Assembly (NCBI GenBank): GCA_018302125.1
Contig: JAGWAC010000003.1
Span: 2,206-66,205 of the forward strand
Source: Candidatus Woesearchaeota archaeon
GTDB lineage: Archaea; Nanobdellota; Nanobdellia; SCGC-AAA011-G17; JACPIM01
Direction of reading: 5' to 3'
DNA length: 64,000 bases
Shown here: piece after piece, positions 4,402-64,000 of the stretch
How positions within the stretch are numbered: position 1 is the stretch's first letter
Layout: every line of letters begins with the position of its first letter
Translations under genes and position numbers: made by a program
Notes under the pieces: model-generated
What the model saw: only the letters and a program-made list of their open reading frames with translations
Databases searched by the model: none
What the model was told of the DNA's origin: nothing

Positions 4402-5469
4402 TTAGAGTTTAATTAAACTTTTTGCCATATTTCCTGCAATTGTCTGGTACGCTTCACAGGGAGTCCAGCAATTTGGGCATCGAAGAGCTTCTGCATCTTC
4501 CTGCATTCTTACTACATTAGGATCTTGCCAAAATCTTTTAAAATCATAATTAAATTCACGTATGTTTCCCAAAGGTTTTGCCCAAACTAAGCATGGAAAA
4601 ATATTTCCATAAGGATCCATAAAGCAGGATGAATTCAGCGCCTTGCAGGGAAGAGGTGATTTGCCAGTTTCTACAAATTTCTCTACAAATTTTGAATACC
4701 TGCTTTCAAAAAAGCTAACTTTCCAGTCATTTCCTTTCTTGAGTTTTCTATAGTTTCTGATTTCGTTAATAACGCTTTTATTGTATTCAACAGTTTTTTG
4801 TTGGTCAGAATTTTTAAAATAATGATTTGAAGTATGGTATAAATTCATATGTATATATTTTGGGTCTATACCATAATTTTTACCCAGGTTTTGAATAAAT
4901 GATTCTATCTTGCCCATGTTATATGGCGAAGAAGTATAACTGATAAAGACATTAAAGTGTTTATTTTCAAGTTTTTGCAGTTCGCGGAATGTTGTCAGGC
5001 ATTTGTTGAAAGAATCCTTTATTCCTCGAATTTCATTATGAGCTTCTTCATAGCCATCTAAGCTGATAGAAACTGCAAAACGTGGAATTTTTAAAGTTAG
5101 AATTTTTTTTACTTGTTCAACAATATTTTTTGTATCAAACCCATTTGTTGTTGTATGCACAACATAAAGTTCATCATTGTATTCTGTAATTGATTTTAGA
5201 ATTTGATAAACATCTCTAATAAACGGTTCTCCCCCAGTAAGTTGCAGCCAGGAAGATTTGGAATTTTTAAAAATATTTCCGATTTCTTCATAGCTAAGTT
5301 CTCCATCTTTTATCTTTTTGGGGTTTGCTAAATAATTCCTGCCAATGTTACAGGTTTTACATAAAAATGTACATGCATAAGTTATTGCAAAAGTAATCTT
5401 GCACGGGCTAGAAAGTCTTTTATAATTTGACATTAAAAGTTTTTTTGAAATTGAATAAAGAGGTTTCAT
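4402..5469 (-). CDS. radical SAM protein with C-terminal SPASM/twitch Cys-rich domain
   Basis: CTFLCKTC (CxxxCxxC) near N-terminus; C-terminal CKALNSSC...CPNCWTPC cysteine cluster. Confidence 0.8.
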   Translation of the reverse strand: MKPLYSISKKLLMSNYKRLSSPCKITFAITYACTFLCKTCNIGRNYLANPKKIKDGELSYEEIGNIFKNSKSSWLQLTGGEPFIRDVYQILKSITEYNDELYVVHTTTNGFDTKNIVEQVKKILTLKIPRFAVSISLDGYEEAHNEIRGIKDSFNKCLTTFRELQKLENKHFNVFISYTSSPYNMGKIESFIQNLGKNYGIDPKYIHMNLYHTSNHYFKNSDQQKTVEYNKSVINEIRNYRKLKKGNDWKVSFFESRYSKFVEKFVETGKSPLPCKALNSSCFMDPYGNIFPCLVWAKPLGNIREFNYDFKRFWQDPNVVRMQEDAEALRCPNCWTPCEAYQTIAGNMAKSLIKL

Positions 5470-6045: not shown

Positions 6046-7461
6046 ATGGATAAAAAAAAAGTATTATTAATTAATCCATCAATGATGAGTGTATATGAGA
6101 AATCAGTCCTAAAAAACTCATTTCCGCACTATCCACCTCTCAATCTTCTCACAGTTGCCGGAGCGTTAAAACAAAATTCCATACCTGTTTCTCTATTAGA
6201 TCTTGACTTAATTAATAACCGCGAATTAACTGAAGTACTTCAAGAAAAATTACGCGAGGTTAATCCAGAATTAGTGGGTGTCACATTCACCACAACATTA
6301 TACAGTCAATGTGTAAAGATTGCCGAAATAATTAAGAATTACAAAAAGGATATCATTGTTGTTGCTGGTGGTTCTCATGCATCTTCAAAACCAGAAGATC
6401 TCATTACCAAAACACCGTATGATATGGCAGTTGTTGGTGAGGGAGAATTTACTCTTGCTGAAGTCATGACTAAACCAAAAGAACAATGGAACACAATTAA
6501 AGGACTTGTCTATAAAGGAGATAAAGGAGAAATTATCAAAACAGAAAAACGTCCATTTATCAAGAATCTTGACGAAATTCCATTTCCCATGTATGAAATT
6601 ATCAATATCTATAACTATAACATTCCGCCAAGTTTCAGAAGAAAAACACCAACAGCTTGTATGGAAACAAGTAGAGGCTGTCTATGGGGATGCACTTATT
6701 GTAACAAGTCTGTCTTTGGAAGAAATTTCCGTGTAAAAAGTCCTGAGCGAACAGTCAAGGAAATTGAACAATTAGTTTCTCTTGGTTATAAAGAAATCCA
6801 CATCGTTGATGACATGTTCACGACTAACAAAGAACGTGTCAAAGAAATTTGTCGTCTTCTTATTGAAAAAAATATAAATATAATCTGGGCATGTCCTAAT
6901 GGCATACGCGCAGATAGAATTGATCGAGAACTCATAAGCCTAATGAAAAAAGCAGGATGCTATCGTGTGTCCATTGGTGCAGAATCAGGAAATCAAGATG
7001 TCTTGAATGCAATTGAAAAAAATCAGACACCTCAGCAGGTTGAAGTAGCTTTCAAGATTTGCAGAGAATTAGGTATGGTCACACATGGATTCTTTATGTT
7101 CGGTCTACCAGAAGACACTGAAGAAACAATGCAGCAAACAATCGAGTTTGCAAAACGCTGTGAGCCAGATATTGCAAAATTCGGCATCATGATCCCTTTA
7201 CCTTCAACACCGATTTACGAAAAATGGAAAGAAAAACAAGCTATTACAGAAAACTGGGATGATTACGGATTCCATAAAGAAAAACCAGTTTATACTCACC
7301 CAACTCTATCACATGAAACTATAAAAAAATACTATAAAAAATCATATCGCGAGTTTTATCTGCGACCAAGCTTTATTATTCGACGTGTATTTCGTAGTCT
7401 AAAGACTGGACAAATTTTTGATGATATAAGGTTAGTGCTTGCAACAAACTGGTTTTCTTAA
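6046..7461 (+). CDS. B12-binding radical SAM protein (class B)
   Basis: N-terminal Rossmann-like B12-binding region (VLLINPS...); SRGCLWGCTYC CxxxCxxC motif. Confidence 0.85.
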   Translation: MDKKKVLLINPSMMSVYEKSVLKNSFPHYPPLNLLTVAGALKQNSIPVSLLDLDLINNRELTEVLQEKLREVNPELVGVTFTTTLYSQCVKIAEIIKNYKKDIIVVAGGSHASSKPEDLITKTPYDMAVVGEGEFTLAEVMTKPKEQWNTIKGLVYKGDKGEIIKTEKRPFIKNLDEIPFPMYEIINIYNYNIPPSFRRKTPTACMETSRGCLWGCTYCNKSVFGRNFRVKSPERTVKEIEQLVSLGYKEIHIVDDMFTTNKERVKEICRLLIEKNINIIWACPNGIRADRIDRELISLMKKAGCYRVSIGAESGNQDVLNAIEKNQTPQQVEVAFKICRELGMVTHGFFMFGLPEDTEETMQQTIEFAKRCEPDIAKFGIMIPLPSTPIYEKWKEKQAITENWDDYGFHKEKPVYTHPTLSHETIKKYYKKSYREFYLRPSFIIRRVFRSLKTGQIFDDIRLVLATNWFS

Positions 7462-7548: not shown

Positions 7549-8910
7549 ATGCTGCAAAAAAGAAAAGTACTGATGGTTTATTGTTATGCTAAAGCAACGC
7601 AGGGAAAACTAAGGGATGTTGGTGGAGCACACCCACCTATTGGGTTACTATATGCAGCCGCGTCTATTGAGAAAGCAGAACACAATGTAAAAGTTTCTGA
7701 TGAATTAGTAAATGATGATACTGAAAAAATTATTGAAGAATTTAAACCTGACACTTTATGTTTAAGTGTAAATACTCCTTGTGTGCCTAGAGCAAAAGCT
7801 CTTGTGGAGTTTGGAAAAAAACATGGTGTAATGCTTTTTATAGCTGGTGGTGCTCATGCAGTAAACGAACCCAAAAGTTGTATAGTTGATATTGGAGTAA
7901 ATGTTGCTGTAATGAATGAAGGTGAAGTAATACTTCCTAAACTTCTCAATAAAAATGACTGGAGTAAAATTAAAGGCATTACTTATAAAAATAATAAAGG
8001 AGAAATTATCAATAATGGAAAGAGTGATCTTATTGAAGACCTTGACAAAATACCTTTTCCAGCACGGCACTTGATTGATTTTTCAAAATATGCTGGGACA
8101 GCTGAATTTGGATTTTTACTGCACAAAAATGAAAAATGGACTCCAGTAATAACATCAAGGGGTTGTCCTTACTTATGCACTTTCTGTGCAAATTGGAGAG
8201 TAATGGGAAGAGATACTAGGGATAGAAGTCCAGAAAATGTTTTAGAAGAGCTGAAAGAAATCAAATATACCAATGGCATGAATACTATTTTATTTCTTGA
8301 TGATACATTTACATTAAGACCAAAACGAGTAGAGAAAATATGTGAATTAATGATAAAAGAAAACCTTAACATGAAATGGTCTTGCCAAACAAGAGTTGAT
8401 GTCTCAAAAGAGCTCTTGGAACTCATGAAAAAAGCAGGATGTCAACTTGTAGCATTTGGAGTAGAATCAGGAAGCAATAAAGTTCTGCGAGCAATCAAAA
8501 AAGGAACAAATATAGACATAGTGAAAAATGCTTTTAAAATTTCGCATGAAGTTGGATTAAAAAGAAAAGCCTTTTTTATTGTTGGGCTTCCTGGAGAAGA
8601 AAAAGAAGACTTTGAGATGAGTGTAAAATTCGCAAAAGAAATTAATCCTGAGTACTTATGGGTAAGCAAGTTTGCCCCAGTCCCTGGTTCTGAATATTAT
8701 GAAAAAAATAAAGAAGATCTGAAAGATATGAAGTGGGAAGACTATGGTTATTTTAATGGAAAAACATCAAATGAAGTTGAGCAAAGACATAGGAAATTAG
8801 TAAGGTCATTTTATCTGAGACCAGCTTATCTATTTAACTTCATGAAACGATTTTCATGGCTTGAATTTGCTTATATGTTCAGAATGTTCAAAAGTTTTGT
8901 TAGAAGTTAA
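7549..8910 (+). CDS. B12-binding radical SAM protein (class B), paralog of preceding gene
   Basis: TSRGCPYLCTFC motif; same domain order as 6046..7461. Confidence 0.85.
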   Translation: MLQKRKVLMVYCYAKATQGKLRDVGGAHPPIGLLYAAASIEKAEHNVKVSDELVNDDTEKIIEEFKPDTLCLSVNTPCVPRAKALVEFGKKHGVMLFIAGGAHAVNEPKSCIVDIGVNVAVMNEGEVILPKLLNKNDWSKIKGITYKNNKGEIINNGKSDLIEDLDKIPFPARHLIDFSKYAGTAEFGFLLHKNEKWTPVITSRGCPYLCTFCANWRVMGRDTRDRSPENVLEELKEIKYTNGMNTILFLDDTFTLRPKRVEKICELMIKENLNMKWSCQTRVDVSKELLELMKKAGCQLVAFGVESGSNKVLRAIKKGTNIDIVKNAFKISHEVGLKRKAFFIVGLPGEEKEDFEMSVKFAKEINPEYLWVSKFAPVPGSEYYEKNKEDLKDMKWEDYGYFNGKTSNEVEQRHRKLVRSFYLRPAYLFNFMKRFSWLEFAYMFRMFKSFVRS

Positions 8911-18757: not shown

Positions 18758-20632
18758 TTATAATTTTATTTTCTTTGCATTAATTTTATCAATATAAATT
18801 TTGTTCCATAATTCCAGCATCAATAAGCTCCAAATTCTTCTAGAATTGTCTCTCCTGTCAGAATTATGTTCTTCAATTATTTTTTTCACATAATTGCTGT
18901 TAAAGAAATTTCTGTGTTTAATGTCATTAATTAGTTCAGCATTAATTAAGTCTCTTAATTCATCTTTTATCCAGTGCTTGATAGGAACATCAAAACCTTG
19001 TTTTCCCCTTTCCAAAATCTCCTTAGGCAATAAATCTGAAAAAGCCTTCTTTAAAATATATTTGTTCATTCCATTTTTTATTTTCAAATAAGCTGGAATT
19101 CCTGAAGCTAAGTCAATAACATAAGTGTCTAAAAAGGGATTTCTTACTTCAAGCGAATTTAACATGCTCATTCTGTCTACTTTTACTAGTCCATCATCTA
19201 AAAGAAAAGTTTTCATATCAGCATATAGCATTTTGTTCAAAAAATTCTTTGAATTGCAGTTTTTAAAATGATAATTTAAGACATTAAATGAACCTGGAAC
19301 ATTTGGGGTTTCAACATAAAGATCTCTTTTTTCTTCTTCATTAAATAAATTTAATTTTGACATCCATCTTTCTTCTTTATTCATGCTGCTCAAATCATTA
19401 ATTTTTTTGAATTTCCTAAAGAAATTATTCCCAGTTTTATTATAAGTTAAGCCAGATATTTTGCTGAATCCTGTTTTCAAAAAAGAAGGCATAAACTTGT
19501 AAAAATTAACTACCTTGTCCTGGTCCCATGGATTATATCTTGTATATCCTGCAAATATTTCATCTCCGCCATCTCCGCTTAAAGCAACCTTTACATACTC
19601 TCTGGTTAATTTACATAAATAATAAGTAGGCAAGGCAGAAGGATCAACAAAAGGTTCGTCAAATTGATTCATAATAAATGGTATATCTTTAATTAGATTG
19701 ACATTCACATTAAATTCCTTATGTTGAGTATTGAATTTCTCACTTGCAATTTTCGCATACTTTAATTCATCAAAATCTTTTTCATCAAAGCCAATTGAAA
19801 ATGTCTTTACATTATCAGTTAATTTTGACATTAATCCAACAACAATACTTGAATCAATGCCGCCAGATAAAAAAGCACCAATAGGAACATCCGCAATTAA
19901 TCTTATCTTGACGCTGTCCTTCAAAATTTCATGAATTCTGCTTGCAAAATATTCTTCAGAGCTTTTAATTTCATTAAAATTAATATCCCAGTATTTTTCA
20001 ATTGTGATTGTGTTGCCCTTAAAAATTAGATAATGCCCCGGCTCTAATTTTTTTATTCCATTCAGAATTGTTAATGGTGTTGGTACATACCCAAATGTTA
20101 GGTAGTGATGAACAGCCTCTAGATTAATTTCCCTCTTCAATTCTTCATCGCATAACAAGGCCTTTAACTCAGAGGCAAATAAAAATTTCTCATTATTGTC
20201 AACATAATATAGTGGTTTTTTCCCTGTTCTGTCTCTAGCCAAAAATAACTTCTTCTCATTTAAGTCATAAACGCAAAAAGCAAACATTCCCCTGAATAAT
20301 TTTACGCAATCTTCTTTATATTCCTGATAAGCGTGTGCAATTATTTCAGTATCTGTGTTTGTATAAAAATTATGCCCTCTCTTTTCTAGTTCATCCTTAA
20401 TATCCAAAAAGTTGTAAATTTCACCATTAAACACAACCCATATTGTCTTGTCTTCATTATGAATTGGCTGTTTTCCATTTTTTAAGTCAATAATACTCAA
20501 TCTCCTATTGCCGATTGTACAGAATTTGTCAGAATAATAGCCAAAATCATCTGGCCCCCTGTGCCAAATAGAGTCGCACATTTTTTTAACTAAATCTTTG
20601 TCCTCAAAATTAAATCCAGCTATTCCGCACAT
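18758..20632 (-). CDS. asnB: asparagine synthase (glutamine-hydrolysing)-like amidotransferase; start moved to MCGIAG
   Basis: Class-II glutamine amidotransferase requires N-terminal Cys (MCGIAGF); the track ORF begins 38 codons upstream at 20746; C-terminal SGGIDSS PP-loop. Confidence 0.85.
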   Translation of the reverse strand: MCGIAGFNFEDKDLVKKMCDSIWHRGPDDFGYYSDKFCTIGNRRLSIIDLKNGKQPIHNEDKTIWVVFNGEIYNFLDIKDELEKRGHNFYTNTDTEIIAHAYQEYKEDCVKLFRGMFAFCVYDLNEKKLFLARDRTGKKPLYYVDNNEKFLFASELKALLCDEELKREINLEAVHHYLTFGYVPTPLTILNGIKKLEPGHYLIFKGNTITIEKYWDINFNEIKSSEEYFASRIHEILKDSVKIRLIADVPIGAFLSGGIDSSIVVGLMSKLTDNVKTFSIGFDEKDFDELKYAKIASEKFNTQHKEFNVNVNLIKDIPFIMNQFDEPFVDPSALPTYYLCKLTREYVKVALSGDGGDEIFAGYTRYNPWDQDKVVNFYKFMPSFLKTGFSKISGLTYNKTGNNFFRKFKKINDLSSMNKEERWMSKLNLFNEEEKRDLYVETPNVPGSFNVLNYHFKNCNSKNFLNKMLYADMKTFLLDDGLVKVDRMSMLNSLEVRNPFLDTYVIDLASGIPAYLKIKNGMNKYILKKAFSDLLPKEILERGKQGFDVPIKHWIKDELRDLINAELINDIKHRNFFNSNYVKKIIEEHNSDRRDNSRRIWSLLMLELWNKIYIDKINAKKIKL

Positions 20633-20685
20633 TTCTAAAACCAATACCAAAAAGGTTTTTAAATCTAACATTTCTTCCTTAAAAA

Positions 20686-22197
20686 ATGAATTCTCTGCCT
20701 TATATGGAAAAAATAGTGAAGGGAGCTTTCTTAGTATTGTTTTCAATGGTTTTCGGAAAACTATTCTCCTATCTTTATGTTATTTTAGTTGCTGTAAATC
20801 TTGGTTCTCATGATTATGGATTATTAAGCTTGGGTCTTGCAATATTGTCCTTTCTTAGCGCATTTTCATTGCTTGGTTTAGATGAGGGCATATTAAGATT
20901 TATTCCCTTTTACAAGGGCAAAAATGACCAAAATTTAATGAAAACTACTTTGTTAACATCACTAAAAACAGTAATAAATTCAAGTTTATTTCTGGCTGTT
21001 TTTATTATTGTGTTCTCGGATTTTATTTCAGATAAAATTTTTGATGAATATGAATTAACAAAAGTAATTTTTTTTATGGCTATTGTTTTACCATTTAATA
21101 CATTATCTCAATTATTTTTAGTTTCTTTTAGGGCATTTCAAAAACCAGAATTTGAAGTTCTCTTTAAGGAATTAATTGAAAAATCATTAAGATTAATTAT
21201 AACTTTGATCTTAATAGCTGTTGGATTTAAGTTAACTGGTGCTTTGTTAGGGTTTGTTCTTTCAATAATTATTGTTTTCTTTTTGTCATTAATAACATTC
21301 AATAAAAAAATATTCAATATATTTTCTAAAGAAATAGTGGAAAAGGAAAATAAAAGAGAATTGTTGAATTATTCATTGCCGTTAATGTTGAAAAATTTCA
21401 TGTGGTTTATAATTGCTTGGACTGATCTGCTTATGATAGGTTATTTCAGCACAACATCAAATGTAGGGATCTATAATGTTGCTCTGCCAACATCAACATT
21501 GATTATAGTTCCTATTTATGGTATTATGTATTTGTTCATGCCAATAATATCAGAATTATATGGAAAAAATAATATCGAACAAATAAATGATATATATAAA
21601 AAAGTCTCAAAATATTCTTTATTATTAACTATCCCAATTTTTCTTGTAATATTTTTGTTGTCAAAAGATTTAATTTTAACCTTTTTTGGAAATGAATATT
21701 TGGCTGCTGCTTTGCCTTTAACAATCTTAAGTCCGGGTTATTTGTTTTTTTCATTAAGCGACATAAGCATGAATATGCTTTCTGTTCGCAAAAAAACTAA
21801 AACAATTTTCTTTATAATTTCAATTTTTGCCTTGTCAAATGTCATTTTAAATTATTTTTTAATTCCAAAATACAATATAATTGGTGCTGCAATAGCAACT
21901 TCATCTTCATTTTTAATAGGGGCAGTTTTGATGATATTAACTTCTTTTTACTATAGTAAACTTCATCCATTTATGTTTAAATATATAAAAATCTTAATTT
22001 CTCTGCTATTAACATTGATTTTTACAGCCATAATAAAAAATCAAATTCAATTTTTCCCATTAATTAACTTAATTTTCTTTACAATTATGATTATTATTGT
22101 ATATTTATCATTAATTTATTTTTTAAAAATTCTTGAAAAAGATGATTTAGAATTATTTAAAGAAATGAAACAGAAGATATTAAGAAGATTAAAATAA
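20686..22197 (+). CDS. polysaccharide/oligosaccharide flippase (Wzx-like, MOP superfamily)
   Basis: 503 aa, ~12-14 TM helices, typical polysaccharide biosynthesis protein architecture. Confidence 0.7.
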   Translation: MNSLPYMEKIVKGAFLVLFSMVFGKLFSYLYVILVAVNLGSHDYGLLSLGLAILSFLSAFSLLGLDEGILRFIPFYKGKNDQNLMKTTLLTSLKTVINSSLFLAVFIIVFSDFISDKIFDEYELTKVIFFMAIVLPFNTLSQLFLVSFRAFQKPEFEVLFKELIEKSLRLIITLILIAVGFKLTGALLGFVLSIIIVFFLSLITFNKKIFNIFSKEIVEKENKRELLNYSLPLMLKNFMWFIIAWTDLLMIGYFSTTSNVGIYNVALPTSTLIIVPIYGIMYLFMPIISELYGKNNIEQINDIYKKVSKYSLLLTIPIFLVIFLLSKDLILTFFGNEYLAAALPLTILSPGYLFFSLSDISMNMLSVRKKTKTIFFIISIFALSNVILNYFLIPKYNIIGAAIATSSSFLIGAVLMILTSFYYSKLHPFMFKYIKILISLLLTLIFTAIIKNQIQFFPLINLIFFTIMIIIVYLSLIYFLKILEKDDLELFKEMKQKILRRLK

Positions 22198-26060: not shown

Positions 26061-27908
26061 TTGACAAATGTCCTCGTAATAAAACAAGGTGCATTAGGCG
26101 ATGTCCTAAGATCAGCATGCATACTTACAGGTATAAAAAGAAAATATCCGAATTCTAAAATTTCATGGTTCACAAAAAAAGAAGCCCTAGACCTAGTAAA
26201 AACAAATCTCTACATAAACAGGATTTTTCTTTACAGCAAAGAAGGCATTGAAAATTTAAAGAAAGAGATTTTTGATATAGTAATAAATTTAGATGAAGAT
26301 TATGAAGCTTGTTCTTTGACAACATATTTCTTGAATAAAAAAGCAAAAATTTATGGATACTATGTAAATAAGGCAAACAAAATAGTTCCAACGCCTTCAG
26401 CAGAATATTATTTTAAAATGTCATTAATCGGCCCGAAACCGATGAACGATGTTTTGAAAAAAAAGAACACTAAAACATATCCTGAAATAATCTATGAGTT
26501 AGCAGAATTAAATTACAAAAAAGATCCTCCTATTTTACTGTTGACTAAAAATCAAAAGCAGTTTGCAGAAGATTTTCTAAGAAGGCATAATCTTACAAAA
26601 AATGATTTTATAATTGGTATTAATACTGGTGCTAGTGCAAGGTGGCCATTCAAAAGCCTGCCTATAGAAAAAACAGCAGAATTAATTGAAAAGTTGTACA
26701 AAGAGTTGAATGCAAAAATAATTCTGTTTGGTGGTCTAGATCAAGTTGAAAGAAATGATAAAATAATGGTTATGTCAAGAGTTCCATTAATAAACGCTGG
26801 CTGTGGTAATTATATTTTTGAATTAGCTTCCTTAATCTCAATTTGCGATACTGTTGTTACATCTGATTCATTAGGGCTTCACATTTCTTTGGCATTGAAA
26901 AGAAATACAGTTGTTTTCTTTGGGCAGACAGCTCCTCAGGAAATTGAAATGTACAATCAAGGCTTGAAAGTGTTTACGTCTTCTGAATGTGTAGGTTGTT
27001 ATTCTTCTTATGATGGTAGAATCCCTAGTTGTATTGATGGCGTCCATGTAAAAGATTTATTTAACGCAGTTTTGGAAGTAAGAAAACAGTCCTTGTCAAT
27101 AGTTCTAATGTCTGCTAAATTAGAAGAGACAGAAAAGACATTAAAGTCTATTTTAGACCAGAAAATAAATGTTCCTCATGAGATTATTGTTTCAACTAAA
27201 GATAAAAATGTAAAAGACCTTATAAAAAAATATGACAGCATAAAAATAATTCTTCAAAAAGAAAACTCACAAAATTTAATAAATGCTGGCTTGGAAACAG
27301 CAAAAAATAAAATAATCTTGGTTACAACAGACAAGGCAGTTCTTGCAAATAATTCAATTAATGAAGTGCTAAATTCATTTAAAGACCCAGCAGTAGGTTG
27401 TATAACTGGCAGACCAGTATCATTAAACCCAAAAACTAATGTAATTGGTTATTGGTCTCACTTATTGTTTGATGCTGGTGCTCATAGAATAAGAAAAGAA
27501 CTTTCATTTCAAGAAAAATTCTTTGAGTGCACAAATTATTTGTTTGCTTTTAAAAATGGTTTTGTAAAAGAAATTCCAAAAGGTATTGCAGAAGACCATT
27601 TAATTCCATATATATTCTGGAAAAATCTTTACAAGTTAAAATATTTGGAAAACGCAAAAGTATTAGTAAAAAACCCGGTTACATTAAACGAGTGGCTAGA
27701 ACAAAAAACAACAAATGCCAAAAAGCACGAAATAATCCAAAAAAAATTAAACTTAAAACAAGCCAAAGTAAAATCACTTAAAAACGAAATATTAAAAGGC
27801 ACAATTTCAGCCCTGGCATATCCAAGAACTATAAAGGAATTTTACTGGACAATTTTGTTATTTTTTGCAAGATTATCAATGTGGCTAAACGTAATAATTA
27901 AAAAATAA
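26061..27908 (+). CDS. bifunctional glycosyltransferase: GT9 (heptosyltransferase-like) N-terminal domain fused to GT2-like C-terminal domain; TTG start
   Basis: N-term KQGALGDVL and TSDSLGLHISLAL...VVFFGQT GT9 signatures; C-terminal ~270 aa with GT2-like layout. Confidence 0.6.
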   Translation: MTNVLVIKQGALGDVLRSACILTGIKRKYPNSKISWFTKKEALDLVKTNLYINRIFLYSKEGIENLKKEIFDIVINLDEDYEACSLTTYFLNKKAKIYGYYVNKANKIVPTPSAEYYFKMSLIGPKPMNDVLKKKNTKTYPEIIYELAELNYKKDPPILLLTKNQKQFAEDFLRRHNLTKNDFIIGINTGASARWPFKSLPIEKTAELIEKLYKELNAKIILFGGLDQVERNDKIMVMSRVPLINAGCGNYIFELASLISICDTVVTSDSLGLHISLALKRNTVVFFGQTAPQEIEMYNQGLKVFTSSECVGCYSSYDGRIPSCIDGVHVKDLFNAVLEVRKQSLSIVLMSAKLEETEKTLKSILDQKINVPHEIIVSTKDKNVKDLIKKYDSIKIILQKENSQNLINAGLETAKNKIILVTTDKAVLANNSINEVLNSFKDPAVGCITGRPVSLNPKTNVIGYWSHLLFDAGAHRIRKELSFQEKFFECTNYLFAFKNGFVKEIPKGIAEDHLIPYIFWKNLYKLKYLENAKVLVKNPVTLNEWLEQKTTNAKKHEIIQKKLNLKQAKVKSLKNEILKGTISALAYPRTIKEFYWTILLFFARLSMWLNVIIKK

Positions 27909-28326: not shown

Positions 28327-29715
28327 ATGAAATTTCTATTTTTAGCATGGAAGCATCCTGTAGAACCATTAGGTTTGTTATACATAAGTGCAATTCTAAA
28401 AAAAGACAATCATAAAACAAAAATAGCTGTTATAGGACAGGATGATTTAACAAAAGTTGTTCAGGATTTTAAGCCTAATGTTGTTGCAGGTTCTGTAATG
28501 ACTGGTGGCCAGACAGAATTTCTAAGGATAACAAATGAACTAAAGCAGCATCATAATTTCTTGACATTAATGGGTGGTTCTCATCCAACTTTCCATCCGC
28601 AAGTATTGAAAGAAGAAGGAATGGATATTGTAGCTCAGGGTGAATGTGAAGAGGCAATTGTAGAATTTGCAAATAATTACGAACAAGGAAAAGATTATAC
28701 AAAAATACAAAATCTTTGGATAAAAAAAGATGGAAAAATTTACAAAAATGAAATCAGAAATTTAAATGAAAATCTGGATACATTACCTTTTCCAGACAGA
28801 GATGTTGCATATGAACATAAAATCTGGAAAGATGAACCAATTAGACATTTCATTGCTTGCAGAGGTTGCTCGTATAAATGCCAATACTGTTTTAATAGCG
28901 CCATAGATAAAATATATGGTGGAAAAGGAAAATGGGTAAGATGGAGATCTGTAGATAATTTAATTGCTGAAATCAAAGAAGTATTTCAGAAGTATGGTGG
29001 AAAATTTGTTTATTTTCAAGATGATATTTTTGTTATGAATAAGCCATGGTTAAAAGAATTTGCAGAAAAATACAGAAAAGAAATTAATTTGCCATTTCAT
29101 TGCCATGTAAGACCCAATAATATTGATGAAAATACGGCTCGCCTATTAAGTGAAGCAGGGTGTTATTCAGTTCATATGGCATTAGAAGCAGCAGATGATT
29201 ATATTAGAAATGTAATAATTAAAAGAGAAATGGATAAAGAAACAGTTTACAAAGCATCAGACTTGCTGCATAAATATGGGATTAAAATTATGTTGCAGAA
29301 TATTTTGGGTTTGCCAGAATCTAGCTTGGAAACAGATTTGGAAACATTAAAGATGAATATTAAATGTAAGCCATTATATGCTTGGTGTTCAATATTCCAG
29401 CCATATCCTGGTTTGCCGTTGACAGAATATGCTATATCAAGAAACTTATTAGAGGGCGATTTTGATGATATTGGTCCAAAGTTCTTTGAAACAACTGTAG
29501 TTAAGTTAGAAAATAAAAAACAAATCGAATACTTGCAAAAATGGTTTGCAGTTGCATCAGCTTATCCATTTATTTATAAAACTGGATTGTTAAAATTAAT
29601 ATTAAATATGCCTGATAATAAGCATATAAAAAATCTTTACAAATTCATTTACAATAAATTTAGAAATCATAAAGACAATCAATTATATGGTATTAAATTG
29701 TCAAGTGCTGCTTAA
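28327..29715 (+). CDS. B12-binding radical SAM protein (class B)
   Basis: ACRGCSYKCQYC motif; N-terminal B12-binding-like domain. Confidence 0.85.
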   Translation: MKFLFLAWKHPVEPLGLLYISAILKKDNHKTKIAVIGQDDLTKVVQDFKPNVVAGSVMTGGQTEFLRITNELKQHHNFLTLMGGSHPTFHPQVLKEEGMDIVAQGECEEAIVEFANNYEQGKDYTKIQNLWIKKDGKIYKNEIRNLNENLDTLPFPDRDVAYEHKIWKDEPIRHFIACRGCSYKCQYCFNSAIDKIYGGKGKWVRWRSVDNLIAEIKEVFQKYGGKFVYFQDDIFVMNKPWLKEFAEKYRKEINLPFHCHVRPNNIDENTARLLSEAGCYSVHMALEAADDYIRNVIIKREMDKETVYKASDLLHKYGIKIMLQNILGLPESSLETDLETLKMNIKCKPLYAWCSIFQPYPGLPLTEYAISRNLLEGDFDDIGPKFFETTVVKLENKKQIEYLQKWFAVASAYPFIYKTGLLKLILNMPDNKHIKNLYKFIYNKFRNHKDNQLYGIKLSSAA

Positions 29716-55120: not shown

Positions 55121-55639
55121 TTATTTTAGTTTAATAATTTTCTTCAAATACATAAAATCAGAATAAATAGGAATAGTATGAACTTTAAACTTCTTAGTCA
55201 GATAAATCCAAGTTATCACTACAAAAATTGTTGAAAAAATTTGCCAGAAAAACAGATGCAGAGTATCAAACCATCTTTTATTAAATTCAATCAAGGCAAT
55301 AGCTAGAATAAATATCCTTAAAATATTAACAGTAAATAAAATCAAGCCCCCAACTAAAAACATTTTAATTCCTTTTCTTAATTTAATATCCTTAGTCAAT
55401 AATATCAAAATAGCAAATAAAACATAAGCAGAGGCAGCTATGCATGCAGGAATAAACTCAAATTTTATATTATTTATAATAAGAAAATTTCCCAAAATTA
55501 ATGGATTATAAAAAAATAGGATCAGATAAGAAGCAAGAAAAGTAGGCAAGGTCAATAAAAAATAAACAGCATAAGTTCCAAAAATTGCAATCAATAAAGC
55601 ACTTAATAATCTTAATCCCAGATTATGCAGGTATTTCAT
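55121..55639 (-). CDS. short exosortase/archaeosortase-family-like membrane protein (candidate)
   Basis: 172 aa, 5-6 TM; PACIAASAY Cys in TM and downstream conserved Arg (LRIFILA) resemble the Cys/Arg catalytic layout of archaeosortases. Confidence 0.3.
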   Translation of the reverse strand: MKYLHNLGLRLLSALLIAIFGTYAVYFLLTLPTFLASYLILFFYNPLILGNFLIINNIKFEFIPACIAASAYVLFAILILLTKDIKLRKGIKMFLVGGLILFTVNILRIFILAIALIEFNKRWFDTLHLFFWQIFSTIFVVITWIYLTKKFKVHTIPIYSDFMYLKKIIKLK

Positions 55640-60287: not shown

Positions 60288-60312
60288 TTGTCCAGTGGAT
60301 TTGTCCAGTGGT
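60287..60312. repeat. perfect tandem direct repeat 2 x 13 nt (TTTGTCCAGTGGA / TTTGTCCAGTGGT) abutting the start of the minus-strand gene 59529..60287
   Basis: Seen directly in sequence; lies in the divergent promoter region between 60287 and 60408. Confidence 0.6.
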
Positions 60313-60407
60313 ATTTATAAAGGAATGGAAAGTTTTCGAGAAATTCAAAAAAGTTTCAGTAAAAATATACAGTTTAATTTTTAAAGTTACTCTTTTTCAA
60401 TATTATC

Positions 60408-60866: not shown

Positions 60867-61145
60867 ATGATTAAAATGAATAAAAAAATACGAACTGTTA
60901 AAGTTAATGAAAGAGGCCAAATAGTGATTCCTGAAGAGATAAGAAAAGATTTAGGTATTAAGGAATCCTCTGTATTAGTTATGATTGAAGAAAATAATGA
61001 AATTATTTTAAAAAAAGAATCTGAGATTTTAAAAGAAATGGATGGGGAAGAACAGTTTTGGAAATCCTTGACTAGAGAAAGCATGAAAAGGGCTTGGAAT
61101 AAGGAAGATGAAATCTGGGATAAACTCTACAAAGAACAAAAATGA
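60867..61145 (+). CDS. mazE: AbrB/MazE-family antitoxin
   Basis: VKVNERGQIVIPEEIRKDLGIKE swapped-hairpin SpoVT/AbrB motif. Confidence 0.6.
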   Translation: MIKMNKKIRTVKVNERGQIVIPEEIRKDLGIKESSVLVMIEENNEIILKKESEILKEMDGEEQFWKSLTRESMKRAWNKEDEIWDKLYKEQK

Positions 61146-61483
61146 ATCAACAAAATTTAGTTTTAATGAAATTTCCTTTTTCTAATCAGGAAGAAAGTAA
61201 AATTAGACCAGGAATTATAATTTCTAATAACGAATATAATGACAAAAAGCAAGATGTTTTAGTATGTGCAATAACATCTAATCTAACTGATGAAGAATAC
61301 AGTATTCTAATTGAAAATAAAGATTTATTAAACGGGTCTATTTTGATAAAAAGCAAGATAAGGGCTGATAAAATTCTATTAATAGAAAAAAAATTAATTA
61401 TTAAAGTTTTGGCGAAATTAAATGACGAAGTTTTTGATTCTCTAGTAGAAAAAATAGCTACCATTATAAAAAGGATTAATTAA
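61142..61483 (+). CDS. mazF: MazF/PemK-family toxin endoribonuclease
   Basis: FPFSNQEESKIRPGIIISNNEYN...VLVCAITSN matches MazF/PemK core; 4-nt overlap with antitoxin. Confidence 0.7.
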   Translation: MNQQNLVLMKFPFSNQEESKIRPGIIISNNEYNDKKQDVLVCAITSNLTDEEYSILIENKDLLNGSILIKSKIRADKILLIEKKLIIKVLAKLNDEVFDSLVEKIATIIKRIN

Positions 61484-62126
61484 ATTTAAATTCACAAATT
61501 TTATTCAAAGGACAATTTTGGCACAAAGGTTTTTTTTTGCAGTAATCTTTTCCTAACTTTACAAGTAAAGCATGATACTCATTAAATATTTTAAAATCTT
61601 TATCCAAATTCTTCATGAATAATTCCTGTAATTCATAATAGCTTTTTTCTTTAAAACCAAGTCTATTAAATATTCTTTTAGTGTAAGCATCAATTACAAA
61701 TATTGGTTTTTTGTAAGCATAAAGTAAAATAGAATCTGCTGTTTCAGGACCAACCCCCCAAATATTAAGTAAATTTTCTCTAGTAATTTCTTTTCCAGAA
61801 TCTAGAAATTTAACAAATTCTTTTATTTTCCTAGCTTTTTGATTATTATATCCGGAAATTTTAATTATTTCAGCTAATTTTTTAATATCAATTTTTCTCA
61901 AATTACTTAAATCAATTAAATTATTTTTCCTTAATTCATCCAAAGCTTTTTCAACATTCTTCCATGAAGTATTCTGAGTTAAAATAGCTCCTAAACAAAT
62001 TTCCAAAACTTCTTTCTTAATTTCAGGTTTTAAATACCCAGAATGATATTTGTCATTAACAGGCCACCATCCCTGCTCTTTAAATTCTTTTAATAAAATT
62101 CTATAAATTTCAAGAACATTATCCAT
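61476..62126 (-). CDS. nth: endonuclease III-like HhH-GPD DNA glycosylase with [4Fe-4S] cluster loop
   Basis: HhH motif (LLNIWGVGPETADSIL), catalytic D in VIDAY, CxxxxxxCxxCxxxxxC at C-terminus. Confidence 0.85.
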   Translation of the reverse strand: MDNVLEIYRILLKEFKEQGWWPVNDKYHSGYLKPEIKKEVLEICLGAILTQNTSWKNVEKALDELRKNNLIDLSNLRKIDIKKLAEIIKISGYNNQKARKIKEFVKFLDSGKEITRENLLNIWGVGPETADSILLYAYKKPIFVIDAYTKRIFNRLGFKEKSYYELQELFMKNLDKDFKIFNEYHALLVKLGKDYCKKKPLCQNCPLNKICEFKFN

Positions 62127-62565
62127 ATCTTCTCTTTATGTCTCTTTTCAAAACCCTATGCTCTTCCTCTTTTCCCTTAGGCTCCCTGAAAAATGAAAAA
62201 AACAATATAACAACACCAGTAACATTTGCTATATCCCCTAAATTAGAAGTAAAAAAATCTGAAAAAGATATATAATCAACAACATATCCAAATAAAACTC
62301 TGTCCAACAAATTGCTTAAAGTTCCGCCAATTAAAAAGCTCAGTCCAAGCCTATATTCTTCATATTTGTAAAATAAAAATAAAAATAAGACAAAAGCCAG
62401 AACAGAAATAAAAATCAATGCAAATGTATATCCTTCTAAAATATCAAAAGCAGCCCCATAATTCCTTACCTTGTCTTCTGATATAAACTTCAGTACATAA
62501 TCAGCCAAAATTATAGCCAAAATTAAGCTTAGGTAGTTTCTCATTTTCTTTTTTTCCGTGAACAC
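62119..62565 (-). CDS. lspA: lipoprotein signal peptidase II
   Basis: NYGAAF, IGGTLSNLLDR and DY.SF.DFF.SNLGD blocks match SPase II conserved regions; 4 TM. Confidence 0.7.
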   Translation of the reverse strand: MFTEKKKMRNYLSLILAIILADYVLKFISEDKVRNYGAAFDILEGYTFALIFISVLAFVLFLFLFYKYEEYRLGLSFLIGGTLSNLLDRVLFGYVVDYISFSDFFTSNLGDIANVTGVVILFFSFFREPKGKEEEHRVLKRDIKRRYG

Positions 62566-62642
62566 TTTTTTAAAAAATATTCTAATAACAAACTTTAAAA
62601 GTATAGTAATATATAAAATTATTTATTAAAAAAGGTGAATTA

Positions 62643-64000
62643 ATGACTCAAGAAGCTCAACAAAAAAAAGAAGAAACTTCTTCATTTCGGGAAAAATTAT
62701 TAGAAGGCTTATTTGGAGCTAAGGCAAAAGAAGAAAAAGATAATCCTGAAATTCCTTCTTTGGGCGAAGAAGTAAAGCCAAAATACTGCCCAAAAGAAGG
62801 GTGCAGATTAATAATTGATGAGTTAAAAGGCGGTGTTGAAGCAAATTATTACTGGATACTTAGGTTTATGGAAACCAAGGAAGATTTTGGTTTAAAATTA
62901 TCAGGCAAAACAGGCGAAGTTATTAAATTAAAAGATTTATTTGCAGCAGGCGAAGCCTCTAGTATGTGGGGTTCAATAGAGCAAAGAAAAGCAATCCAGC
63001 AGGAAAAAATCTCTTCTTATCTGGCAACTATAGGAAAAATGACTAAAGACATGTTCCAGATAATTAGGGAATTAAGAATTCTTGATGAAAGATTAGCTTA
63101 CTATAAAGGTTACAATGAAGGAAGTCATTCAGCCAGTGTAGCCCTAAAATCAGTCTGGGTTGACTTGGTTGAAGGCGGTGCAAAAAACCCTGGCTCTGTA
63201 ACTGGTTTAGCATCCCAAGTTGGTTTTGTAATATTGCCTGATTTATTTTATAGAATTCATCCTAAAGATATAAAAGAAGTTGATAAGCTGATTAATACTT
63301 TAAGTAAAGATGGTATTAATATAAAAGTGCGTGAAGTATTAGCAAGAAAACTATTCCAGTTTTTGGATTGGAAGGAAAAAACAGAAAAAGAAATTAACGA
63401 TAGAAGAAAATTTGTTCTTGCATATTTAAGGCAGCATTTTAACACAATAAGAATGTACATAAATTGGGTAAAGCCATACTTAAGAAATATAAGGCAATTG
63501 GAAATGTCTCGTGATATTAATGATCCGCATTTGTTAAGCACATTTGAAACAAATAAAATAGAGGTTGAATTATTAGGTATAAAAAAAACTTATACAGAAA
63601 TAACGCCAAATGGTTTTGAAATTGACAGAGAATATAGAAAATATTTTCCATGTATTCATGTAAGAATAAGATTTGTTGCTTTGCCTGAAATGGCTTATCA
63701 AAAAGAATATCAAAGGGGCGCAGTTCACATGGGAAGAACAGAAATTTACATTAAAGGCTATGTTTCAACTATGCAGCAGATTGAAGCATATAAAAAAAAG
63801 CTGGAAGAAGAAGACATAGAAATAATAACTTCTCTGCAAGAATCTTTAATGTCAATGAAAGACGAAATTACAAAATATTTAAATGAAGCTCAGGAAAAAA
63901 ATATTCCAGTTCTAAAAGAAGAAGTAATTGAAGTTATGGAAAAAACAGGTGCAAAAAAAGAAAAAGCAATAGAAGCCCTAAAAAAAGCAGGAACAGTTCA
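62643..64000 (+). CDS. hypothetical protein, >450 aa, C-terminus beyond window; AGGTGA Shine-Dalgarno upstream
   Basis: Uninterrupted plus-strand reading frame from ATG 62643 to window end with coding-like composition; absent from ORF track because it is incomplete. Confidence 0.5.
   Translation, partial: MTQEAQQKKEETSSFREKLLEGLFGAKAKEEKDNPEIPSLGEEVKPKYCPKEGCRLIIDELKGGVEANYYWILRFMETKEDFGLKLSGKTGEVIKLKDLFAAGEASSMWGSIEQRKAIQQEKISSYLATIGKMTKDMFQIIRELRILDERLAYYKGYNEGSHSASVALKSVWVDLVEGGAKNPGSVTGLASQVGFVILPDLFYRIHPKDIKEVDKLINTLSKDGINIKVREVLARKLFQFLDWKEKTEKEINDRRKFVLAYLRQHFNTIRMYINWVKPYLRNIRQLEMSRDINDPHLLSTFETNKIEVELLGIKKTYTEITPNGFEIDREYRKYFPCIHVRIRFVALPEMAYQKEYQRGAVHMGRTEIYIKGYVSTMQQIEAYKKKLEEEDIEIITSLQESLMSMKDEITKYLNEAQEKNIPVLKEEVIEVMEKTGAKKEKAIEALKKAGTV

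What the first reader, a model, noticed from the sequence alone, without database searches (positions are those of the whole stretch)
62119..62565. Bacterial-type lipoprotein signal peptidase II (LspA) in an archaeal context, near a possible short archaeosortase
The SPase II conserved regions are all present: NxGAAF, IGGxxxNxxDR, and the Asp-containing FxxxD block. LspA is characteristically bacterial and rare in archaea. Its presence implies bacterial-like lipobox lipoproteins and probable horizontal acquisition. A 172-aa membrane protein at 55121-55639 with a Cys/Arg layout reminiscent of archaeosortases lies 7 kb away. That hints at two different C- and N-terminal surface-anchoring systems.
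Basis: partly seen in the sequence, partly recalled or inferred. Interest (0 to 1): 0.5.

Follow-up and report, generated by a model that had tools for sequence, protein, structure and literature searches.

The report
Trimmed lipoprotein signal peptidase in DPANN archaeon
This gene is a real, apparently active but shortened copy of the bacterial lipoprotein signal peptidase (LspA), sitting in a tiny-celled DPANN archaeon and shared by many of its relatives, which contradicts review statements that archaea have no such enzyme.

Summary
The ORF at 62119-62565 (-) exists and belongs to the Peptidase_A8/LspA family (Pfam 67 bits against a cutoff of 25). It keeps 12 of the 14 conserved LspA residues, including both catalytic aspartates (D97, D111). 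A confident AlphaFold model matches only LspA crystal structures. The surrounding window is archaeal (L32e, L19e, S4e and related genes). The 172-aa ORF at 55121-55639 is a pacearchaeosortase.

- The gene is not rare in this lineage. A profile search returns more than 100 clusters, and every hit that carries an organism name comes from Woesearchaeota or Nanoarchaeota. All are already auto-annotated "signal peptidase II".
- Nothing suggests recent transfer. Base composition is native, and the neighbourhood is conserved across distant DPANN lineages.
- The protein is a "mini-LspA". About 18 residues, the first hairpin of the β-cradle, are missing.

The window contains no lgt gene and no lipobox protein. 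However, related LspA-carrying DPANN contigs encode two clear lipobox proteins, one about 500 bp from lspA.

The most likely function is a genuine SPase II. Which enzyme lipidates its substrates (Lgt, AliA or something else) remains untested. Reviews from 2018 and 2025 state that archaea have no Lsp homologue, so this is a database-versus-literature gap of moderate interest.

The parts
62119..62565 (-). lspA-like gene (mini-LspA). It encodes 148 aa from GTG at 62565; the more probable start is ATG at 62544 (141 aa).
   Evidence: ORF listing. Pfam PF01252 at 67 bits, cutoff 25. 100% identical to the NCBI protein 'signal peptidase II [Ca. Woesearchaeota archaeon]'. AF2 model pLDDT 94. Foldseek top 5 hits are LspA 6ryo/6ryp/5dir, prob 1.00, TM 0.63-0.72. 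Alternative start.
62275..62277 (-). Codon of Asp97, the first catalytic aspartate (equivalent to S. aureus D118 and P. aeruginosa D124), in GYVVDY.
   Evidence: Alignment to PDB LspA chains. Dyad residues as named in PMC6952399. Invariant in 88 aligned homologues. Codon checked.
62233..62235 (-). Codon of Asp111, the second catalytic aspartate (equivalent to S. aureus D136 and P. aeruginosa D143), in SNLGD (canonical FNxAD).
   Evidence: The S/G substitutions at positions 107 and 110 are confined to the window's closest relatives. 99 of 112 relatives keep FNxAD.
62446..62463 (-). N35-Y-G-A-A-F40 motif (Asn52/Gly54 equivalents of S. aureus LspA). It lies only 13 residues after the TM1 Asp22, against 30-31 in canonical LspA.
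62299..62331 (-). I79-GGTLSNLLD-R89 motif on TM3 (G102, N106, D109 and R110 equivalents).
62125..62178 (-). Extra C-terminal helix (residues 130-147, KEEEHRVLKRDIKRRYG), predicted to be cytoplasmic. It is found only in the window's sub-clade.
   Evidence: AF2 secondary structure H130-147 with block pLDDT 91-96. Present in P0001-P0004 and absent in most mini-LspAs.
62566..62642 (.). A 77-bp (98 bp if the ATG start is used) AT-rich spacer between the divergently oriented lspA and the conserved 'big' partner gene. It is presumably a shared promoter region and contains TTTATATA.
   Evidence: Sequence read. The promoter role is inferred and was not tested.
62643..64000 (+). 5' 452 codons of a 533-aa DPANN-specific hypothetical protein (P0270). 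It is cut off by the end of the window and is the conserved neighbour of lspA.
   Evidence: There are at least 699 clusters, and all named ones are DPANN. No Pfam, NCBIfam or PDB sequence hit. AF2 pLDDT 80.6, showing a long helical hairpin plus a β domain.
55121..55639 (-). Pacearchaeosortase (172 aa, 5 predicted TM segments) with candidate catalytic residues Cys66, Arg108 and His128.
   Evidence: NF033505 at 117.3 bits (cutoff 80) and TIGR04178 at 44.2 (cutoff 23). Pfam Exosortase_EpsH at 23.5, just under its cutoff of 25.7. C66 and R108 are invariant in all 4 aligned sequences; H128 is conserved in the 3 orthologues.

Best explanation
The gene encodes a catalytically competent but reduced member of the lipoprotein signal peptidase family (MEROPS A8, LspA, SPase II). 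Its host is a DPANN archaeon of the Woese-/Pacearchaeota group (GTDB Nanoarchaeota). The predicted protein has the four-helix LspA membrane core with the Asp97/Asp111 dyad at the outer membrane face. It lacks about 18 residues between TM1 and the NxGAAF motif. In bacterial LspA those residues form the first β-hairpin of the β-cradle, the element proposed to cover the substrate's lipid chains. I infer that it acts like bacterial LspA. After Sec export and lipid modification of a lipobox cysteine, the signal-peptide helix docks against TM2-TM4. The lipobox lies extended over the dyad, and the bond just before the modified Cys is cut, leaving an N-terminally lipid-anchored surface protein. Family membership, conserved residues, fold, archaeal host and clade-wide distribution are shown here. 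Substrate class and lipid dependence are inferred. The gene most likely entered an ancestor of this DPANN group from bacteria long ago and has since been inherited vertically while shrinking. It is unrelated in mechanism to the pacearchaeosortase 7 kb away, which would handle C-terminal anchoring.
For: Family and active site:
- Pfam PF01252 scores 67 bits against a cutoff of 25.
- phmmer to LspA structures 6ryo, 9emz and 5dir gives 2.8e-10 to 5e-9, with both catalytic Asp aligned.
- 12 of the 14 conserved LspA residues listed in PMC6952399 are identical: D22, K26, N35, G37, G81, N85, D88, R89, V95, D97, N108, D111. These same positions, apart from V95, are invariant in 88 homologues; V95 is nearly invariant.
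- The AF2 model has pLDDT 94 and pTM 0.83. The only significant PDB fold matches are LspA.

Archaeal host:
- The window carries L32e, L19e, S4e, a Sec61-type plug, an EMC3-like protein, the P1 stalk protein and NIP7.

Clade:
- The best 120 profile hits are 115-160 aa long, and every hit with an organism name is a DPANN archaeon.
- The TM1-Asp to NxG spacing is 12-17 in this group against 30-31 in canonical LspA.

Vertical inheritance:
- Base composition is native.
- The neighbourhood with the 460-535-aa protein is conserved in 10 independent loci. In L054 the two genes form a co-directional operon with a TAATG stop/start overlap.

Substrates:
- Two called genes on LspA-bearing DPANN contigs start with textbook lipoprotein signal peptides.
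- L045 10865-11560 begins MSLVNKLCKALAVTTIAAAIGC|SGTD, carries an HExxH motif and lies 500 bp from lspA.
- L051 19225-19743 begins MLSMVRLLVLGILICFIAGC|SLSE.
- The same regular expression recovers obvious lipoproteins in bacterial loci.
- PMC12462473 reports that SignalP6 predicts lipoproteins to be prevalent in DPANN.
Against: - No lipobox ORF and no Lgt-like gene were found in the 64-kb window or in the roughly 250 kb of related archaeal DNA held here, apart from the two lipobox proteins. The Lgt search had no positive control, because lgt was not near lspA in the bacterial loci either.
- The NCBIfam equivalog model TIGR00077 scores 53.9, below its cutoff of 73.95.
- Half of the β-cradle is missing, and two conserved positions differ (F to S107, A to G110). 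Substrate or lipid recognition may therefore differ from bacterial LspA.
- Two large secreted proteins visible on related contigs have SPase-I-type signal peptides, not lipobox ones.
- The conserved linkage to cytoplasmic coiled-coil proteins hints at another or an additional role.
- No biochemical data exist for any archaeal LspA.
Confidence: 0.6

Rival explanations
1. Repurposed membrane aspartyl protease. The mini-LspA no longer processes lipoproteins, or not only them. Instead it works within a DPANN-specific module together with the conserved 460-535-aa helical-hairpin protein and the 93-131-aa coiled-coil protein, for example in envelope or membrane remodelling or in host attachment.
For: lspA is linked to the big protein in every DPANN locus examined that reaches far enough on that side. 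The arrangement is either divergent or a co-directional operon with overlapping stop and start codons. In 6 lineages the small coiled-coil gene lies directly upstream: it overlaps the lspA start by 8 to 19 bp in L047, L049 and L050, and lies 6 to 138 bp upstream in L051, L055 and L009. The β-cradle hairpin that is proposed to cover the diacylglycerol chains is lost. The window clade adds a cytoplasmic C-terminal helix.
Confidence: 0.2
2. Recent horizontal transfer from a bacterium, or a bacterial fragment mis-assembled or mis-binned into an archaeal contig.
For: LspA is near-universal in bacteria. Reviews describe it as exclusively bacterial. The best named non-archaeal relatives are Firmicutes at 30-40% identity.
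Against: The gene is flanked on both sides by archaeal or DPANN genes on one contig. The same arrangement was recovered in several independent assemblies. GC is 0.300 against 0.294 for the window. The nearest relatives are all DPANN, and no bacterial sequence exceeds about 45% identity. Synteny is conserved in lineages with only about 30% LspA identity.
Confidence: 0.03
3. Decaying relic or pseudo-enzyme: a shrinking leftover of an old transfer with no remaining proteolytic function.
For: Progressive shortening to 115-148 aa. Loss of a structural element. Two substitutions in the FNxAD block in the window's sub-clade.
Against: Twelve residues, including both catalytic Asp, are invariant across 88 diverged sequences with a mean column identity of 32%. 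The ORFs are intact in more than 100 clusters. The structure prediction is confident and compact. This pattern indicates purifying selection on the active site.
Confidence: 0.05

Closest known systems
Bacterial lipoprotein signal peptidase LspA (SPase II, MEROPS A8); structures from S. aureus (6RYO/6RYP) and P. aeruginosa (5DIR)
   Same: Four-TM core. Asp-Asp dyad (D97/D111 corresponding to D118/D136). 12 of 14 conserved residues. The extracellular loop after NxGAAF. The three short strands between TM3 and TM4. Foldseek prob 1.00, TM about 0.7.
   Different: About 18 residues shorter between TM1 and NxGAAF, so the first β-hairpin of the β-cradle is absent. F132 is replaced by Ser and A135 by Gly. 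There is an extra C-terminal helix. The host is an archaeon. It scores below the TIGR00077 equivalog cutoff. No lgt is seen nearby.
Auto-annotated 'signal peptidase II' / 'Lipoprotein signal peptidase' proteins of Woesearchaeota and Nanoarchaeota MAGs (e.g. archaeon GW2011_AR17)
   Same: Same clade. The window protein is 100% identical to one such NCBI record. They share the reduced length and the conserved neighbourhood.
   Different: These records are pipeline names only. I found no paper that discusses them. Three reviews or papers state that archaea lack Lsp homologues. The window's sub-clade differs by the SNLGD motif, the C-terminal helix, and the absence of the upstream small coiled-coil gene.
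Archaeal lipoprotein pathway of Haloferax volcanii (AliA/AliB lipidation; signal peptidase still unidentified)
   Same: It deals with the same lipobox-type signal peptides. AliA (arCOG02177) is reported as present in DPANN 'with some gaps'.
   Different: AliA and AliB are lipidation factors, not peptidases. Haloarchaea have no LspA homologue. Whether this DPANN genome has AliA or Lgt could not be tested here.
Archaeosortase/exosortase family (ArtA and relatives), for the ORF at 55121-55639
   Same: Polytopic membrane protein with the Cys/Arg/His signature. It passes the NCBIfam pacearchaeosortase and exo_archaeo signature models.
   Different: It is much shorter (172 aa) than ArtA-type enzymes. 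No cognate C-terminal sorting-signal protein is visible in the window. It shows no operonic link to lspA.

Membership tests
Peptidase A8 / LspA (SPase II) | Significant match to the family profile above the curated threshold | tested here: met
   Pfam PF01252 at 67 bits, cutoff 25, E=2.6e-18.
Peptidase A8 / LspA (SPase II) | Score above the NCBIfam equivalog cutoff (TIGR00077 lspA), meaning 'same function' by curators' criteria | tested here: not met
   53.9 bits against a cutoff of 73.95. All PRK-type LspA equivalogs are also far below their cutoffs.
Peptidase A8 / LspA (SPase II) | Catalytic aspartate dyad (S. aureus D118/D136) | tested here: met
   D97 and D111 align to the dyad and are invariant in 88 homologues.
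Peptidase A8 / LspA (SPase II) | The 14 highly conserved residues around the active and substrate sites | tested here: met
   12 of 14 are identical. F132 to S107 and A135 to G110 differ only in the window's closest relatives.
Peptidase A8 / LspA (SPase II) | Four-TM LspA fold | tested here: met
   AF2 pLDDT 94. Foldseek hits 1-5 are 6ryo, 6ryp and 5dir at prob 1.00, TM 0.63-0.72. The next hit has E=0.34.
Peptidase A8 / LspA (SPase II) | Complete β-cradle (two strands from the TM1-TM2 loop plus strands from the TM3-TM4 loop) | tested here: not met
   TM1-Asp to NxG-Asn spacing is 13 against 30-31. The model shows only one 3-residue strand (33-35) in that loop.
Peptidase A8 / LspA (SPase II) | Lipobox-bearing substrates in the same genome | tested here: inconclusive
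   None in the window. Two clear cases on related LspA-bearing DPANN contigs L045 and L051. The rest of this genome is not available.
Peptidase A8 / LspA (SPase II) | A partner lipid transferase (Lgt, or archaeal AliA) in the same genome | not testable with these tools
   No Lgt in the window or in 251 kb of related archaeal loci (phmmer with E. coli Lgt verified against 5AZB, plus a signature regex). No Lgt Pfam hit among the window's multi-TM ORFs.
Peptidase A8 / LspA (SPase II) | Cleavage before a lipid-modified Cys; inhibition by globomycin or myxovirescin | not testable with these tools
   Requires biochemistry.
Archaeosortase/exosortase (pacearchaeosortase), ORF 55121-55639 | Match above curated cutoffs to the subfamily and signature models | tested here: met
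   NF033505 at 117.3 (cutoff 80) and TIGR04178 at 44.2 (cutoff 23). Pfam Exosortase_EpsH at 23.5 is marginally below its cutoff of 25.7.
Archaeosortase/exosortase (pacearchaeosortase), ORF 55121-55639 | Conserved Cys / Arg / His catalytic signature | tested here: met
   C66 (IPACIA), R108 (NILRI) and H128 (DTLHLF) are present and conserved in orthologues from L001 and L005. Assigning these residues to the catalytic triad rests on general knowledge of the family.
Archaeosortase/exosortase (pacearchaeosortase), ORF 55121-55639 | Cognate substrates with a C-terminal tripartite sorting signal | tested here: inconclusive
   No ORF in the window or nearby loci combines a signal peptide with a C-terminal TM segment and a basic tail. 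The rest of the genome was not available.

The most novel reading that the evidence does not exclude
A hybrid lipoprotein pathway in DPANN archaea. A bacterial-type SPase II, trimmed of the β-cradle hairpin that covers diacylglycerol chains, cleaves prolipoproteins whose Cys carries an archaeal (archaeol-type, AliA-dependent) or host-scavenged lipid. It would be the first identified archaeal lipoprotein signal peptidase. It may also be physically or functionally coupled to a DPANN-specific cytoplasmic coiled-coil module encoded next to it.
Probability: 0.2. Interest if true: 0.75.

Novelty: new variant of a known kind. Interest (0 to 1): 0.5.

Why it matters
The archaeal lipoprotein field states that no archaeal homologue of Lgt or Lsp exists. 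It names the lipoprotein signal peptidase as the next component to find (PMC12462473; also PMC6098224 and PMC12067869).

A conserved, apparently active LspA clade in Woese-, Pace- and Nanoarchaeota contradicts the blanket statement. It also gives a concrete small protein of 141 aa to test against archaeal-lipid-modified substrates.

The natural deletion of half the β-cradle is a ready-made probe of what that element does in substrate and lipid recognition. It may also bear on globomycin and myxovirescin binding.

The find does not solve the peptidase question for haloarchaea or methanogens, which lack this gene. In addition, the proteins are already labelled correctly in databases. The advance is therefore one of recognition and variant description, not discovery of a new kind of system.

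Tried and rejected
- tRNA and Rfam scans of the window found nothing that identifies the organism.
- The exact look-up of the 148-aa protein failed because other pipelines call a 141-aa product.
- The genome-contig scan was driven by two peptide patterns, so it over-sampled Lachnospiraceae. It is not a fair picture of distribution.
- A neighbour-joining tree of 104 LspA sequences was star-like. Most named archaeal sequences grouped together. The window's sub-clade sat on a long branch, and one canonical-length Woesearchaeota sequence grouped with unnamed canonical-length sequences. I draw no conclusion about the donor lineage or about monophyly.
- The Lgt search with E. coli Lgt (sequence recalled from memory and verified against 5AZB) was negative in archaeal loci. 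It was equally negative in bacterial lspA loci, so it carries no weight beyond 'not adjacent'.
- The lipobox regex found nothing in the window.
- A weak tblastn hint (E about 1) suggests the small coiled-coil protein may have been absorbed into the big protein in the window clade. It is not significant.
- The AFDB50 fold library was unavailable.
- The supplementary tables of PMC12462473 were not held.
- Cluster look-ups returned almost no organism names for unnamed relatives.
- I considered CPBP or rhomboid for the 172-aa ORF and rejected both, since only exosortase-family models match.
Full report
**Observation**

It spans 62119-62565 on the minus strand and encodes 148 aa from a GTG start. 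The protein contains N35-YGAAF, I79-GGTLSNLLD-R89, G-Y-V-V-D97-Y and S-N-L-G-D111.

The match to LspA is not a chance motif coincidence:
- Pfam Peptidase_A8 scores 67 bits against a gathering cutoff of 25, E=2.6e-18.
- phmmer finds the three distinct LspA sequences in the PDB at 2.8e-10 to 5e-9 and nothing else.
- A profile built from homologues hits this ORF alone in the six-frame translated window, at 129.5 bits against 6.8 for the next best.

The start codon is uncertain. NCBI's record, 100% identical at 148 aa, uses the GTG. Another pipeline aa from the ATG at 62544. That start lines up better with the N-termini of the homologues.

**Host**

The window is archaeal. It carries ribosomal proteins L32e, L19e and S4e, the acidic stalk protein, a SecY with a Sec61-type plug, an EMC3/TMCO1-like insertase and a NIP7-like protein.

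The 172-aa ORF at 55121-55639 passes NCBIfam's pacearchaeosortase model at 117 bits (cutoff 80) and the exosortase/archaeosortase signature model. The closest LspA relatives are labelled Woesearchaeota or Nanoarchaeota. The organism is therefore a DPANN archaeon of the Woese-/Pacearchaeota group. GC is about 29% throughout, and the lspA gene, at 30.0%, does not stand out.

**Active site and fold**

PMC6952399 lists 14 highly conserved residues of S. aureus LspA and identifies D118/D136 as the catalytic dyad. Transferring these through the HMMER alignment gives D22, K26, N35, G37, G81, N85, D88, R89, V95, D97, S107, N108, G110 and D111. That is 12 of 14 identical, with both dyad aspartates present.

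It implicitly emphasised D88 of the DR motif, which is conserved but not catalytic.

In an alignment of 88 homologues with a mean column identity of only 32%, the invariant columns are D22, K26, N35, G37, F40, G81, N85, D88, R89, D97, N108 and D111. That pattern is what purifying selection on a working LspA active site would produce.

AlphaFold2 with this alignment gives pLDDT 94 and pTM 0.83. Foldseek against the PDB returns LspA chains as hits 1-5 (prob 1.00, TM 0.63-0.72), followed by noise at E>0.3.

**What differs from bacterial LspA**

In canonical LspA, the Asp of TM1 (DxxxK) and the Asn of NxGAAF are 30-31 residues apart. Here they are 13 apart.

Among the best 150 representatives from an exhaustive HMMER search of 1.84 billion proteins, the spacing is bimodal. 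One peak is at 30-31 and another at 12-17. The missing segment corresponds to the first β-hairpin of the β-cradle. The model retains only a 3-residue strand there (33-35), plus the three short strands of the TM3-TM4 loop.

PMC6952399 describes the β-cradle as accommodating the residues C-terminal to the cleavage site. It also models the diacylglycerol chains beneath it. The deletion therefore plausibly changes lipid or substrate recognition, though this is an inference.

The window's own sub-clade additionally has SNLGD instead of FNxAD; 99 of 112 relatives keep FNxAD. It also has a confident extra C-terminal helix at residues 130-147. Finally, the protein falls below the NCBIfam equivalog cutoff, TIGR00077 scoring 53.9 against 73.95.

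**Distribution**

A profile search with 31 mini-LspA sequences returned 2683 proteins at E<=1e-8. The best 120 are 115-160 aa long (median 129). All 20 that carry an organism name are Woesearchaeota, Nanoarchaeota, Nanoarchaeia or 'archaeon', and all are named 'signal peptidase II'. One cluster includes 'Lipoprotein signal peptidase [archaeon GW2011_AR17]'. A few named archaeal members have intermediate (25-26) or canonical (31) spacing, which is consistent with stepwise reduction within the archaeal lineage.

So the gene is common in this DPANN group and already labelled in databases. By contrast, the literature I could search says otherwise:
[quoted passage not shown] - LspA 'is found exclusively in bacteria' (PMC12067869).

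No paper co-mentions lipoprotein signal peptidase with these DPANN taxa.

**History**

Several observations argue against recent transfer or contamination:
- Base composition is native.
- The same arrangement appears in several independent assemblies.
- Microsynteny is conserved across lineages whose LspA proteins are only about 30-40% identical.

A 460-535-aa protein without any Pfam, NCBIfam or PDB match is encoded next to lspA in the window, L001, L005, L045, L009, L047, L049, L050, L051 and L054. These proteins are all mutually homologous.
- In most loci the gene is divergent from lspA. In the window it starts at 62643 and runs off the end.
- In the GW2011_AR17-like locus L054 it lies directly downstream on the same strand with a TAATG stop/start overlap.

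A 93-131-aa protein lies directly upstream of lspA in six lineages but is absent from the window's sub-clade. Its gene overlaps the lspA start by 8 to 19 bp in L047, L049 and L050, and lies 6 to 138 bp upstream in L051, L055 and L009. It has an MGLF..KKKK N-terminus, a Pro-rich linker and a C-terminal coiled coil.

The most economical history is one old acquisition from bacteria, followed by vertical descent and reduction. My neighbour-joining tree was too poorly resolved to name a donor or to prove monophyly.

**Function**

The window offers no direct test of substrates. No ORF matches a lipoprotein signal-peptide pattern. None of its multi-TM proteins is Lgt-like; they are PMT_2, a polysaccharide flippase, SecY, EMC3-like, a small multidrug exporter, the sortase, PAP2, a CTP-transferase-like protein, a VTT/DedA protein and LspA.

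The pattern scan does work on bacterial loci. When extended to the other DPANN loci it finds two called genes with textbook lipoprotein signal peptides:
- L045 10865-11560 (231 aa) begins MSLVNKLCKALAVTTIAAAIGC|SGTD. It carries an HExxH motif and lies 500 bp from the lspA of a 47%-identical relative.
- L051 19225-19743 (172 aa) begins MLSMVRLLVLGILICFIAGC|SLSE.

The pattern was tested at every start codon of every six-frame ORF in these loci. Apart from a second in-frame start of the L051 gene, it matched nothing else except three short ORFs (66-91 aa) that are not among the called genes. PMC12462473 also reports that predicted lipoproteins are prevalent in DPANN and that AliA occurs there 'with some gaps'.

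I therefore consider a genuine SPase II role the best explanation (confidence about 0.6). The open question is which enzyme lipidates the cysteine, and with what lipid.

**The sortase**

C66 and R108 are invariant in the four-sequence alignment. H128 is conserved in the three orthologues. It sits in a conserved trio with a PAP2 phosphatase and a CTP-transferase-like membrane protein.

It is separated from lspA by a VTT/DedA-family membrane protein, GluRS, a 252-aa protein, a NIP7-like protein, a MazE/PemK pair and an HhH-GPD glycosylase. Nothing indicates a joint system. No candidate substrate with a C-terminal sorting signal is visible in the DNA available.

**Verdict**

The protein is a member of a known family and is already correctly named by annotation pipelines.

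What is new:
- It represents a widespread, vertically inherited, structurally reduced archaeal variant.
- The archaeal lipoprotein literature has overlooked it.
- It has a conserved and unexplained gene neighbourhood.

Interest is moderate (0.5). It would be higher if the hybrid-pathway reading were confirmed.

Noticed in passing
[not shown]
   Followed up: partly
L047 9727-10008, L049 9162-9500, L050 9684-10007, L051 9653-9994, L055 9564-9959, L009 8105-8482: A small 93-131-aa protein with an MG(L/I)F..KKKK N-terminus, a Pro-rich linker and a C-terminal coiled coil. Its gene lies directly upstream of lspA in six DPANN lineages, overlapping the lspA start in L047, L049 and L050. It is missing in the window's sub-clade, where LspA instead carries an extra C-terminal helix.
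   Followed up: partly
L045 10865-11560 (+); L051 19225-19743 (+): Two clear lipobox signal peptides on DPANN contigs that carry mini-LspA. The L045 protein has an HExxH (HESTH) metalloprotease-like motif and lies 500 bp from lspA.
   Followed up: partly
L001 5354-7177 and 4496-5302; L052 12295-14109 and 14155-14961 (just beyond the window end); L054 11959-14707: A roughly 600-aa protein with a C-terminal xylose-isomerase-like TIM barrel (AP_endonuc_2), a roughly 160-aa protein and a roughly 268-aa Pol-β-type nucleotidyltransferase accompany the big protein and lspA in most of these DPANN loci. The function of this neighbourhood is unknown.
   Followed up: no
window 3-31833: The first half of the window looks like a surface-glycan biosynthesis island. 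It holds at least three B12-binding radical SAM paralogues (6046-7461, 7549-8910, 28327-29715; the ORF at 3-1382 begins similarly but was not scanned). It also holds a radical SAM/SPASM protein (4402-5469), a PMT_2 glycosyltransferase (2583-4397), a GT9+GT2 fusion (26061-27908), a Polysacc_synt/MurJ-like flippase (20686-22197) and an asparagine synthase (18758-20746).
   Followed up: partly
window 60867-61483 (+): A MazE/PemK toxin-antitoxin pair lies between the NIP7-like gene and the HhH-GPD glycosylase. In relatives L001 and L002 the pair sits on the other side of lspA, and L005 lacks it. It appears to be a mobile insertion in an otherwise syntenic region.
   Followed up: no
window 61476-62126 (-) and 62119-62565 (-): The lspA stop codon region overlaps the start of the downstream HhH-GPD DNA glycosylase gene by 8 bp, suggesting co-transcription in this genome. 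The pairing is not conserved in relatives.
   Followed up: no
L013 2856-3263, L015 10001-10465, L016 10001-10432, L025 10001-10444 (Lachnospiraceae loci): These bacterial LspA-like paralogues have degenerate NxGAAF blocks (e.g. NYGFAG, NDGMAGG) and FNxSD or GNISD in place of FNxAD. They may be non-canonical LspA paralogues in Firmicutes.
   Followed up: no
window about 60288-60407 versus L052/L053: Two other assemblies of the same contig (75,162 and 74,275 bp) differ from each other by a 13-bp indel in the intergenic region upstream of the NIP7-like gene. The window's spacing matches L053. Gene calls there also give PAP2 as 186 aa (start about 55669) rather than the longer 214-aa ORF from TTG at 55585.
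   Followed up: no
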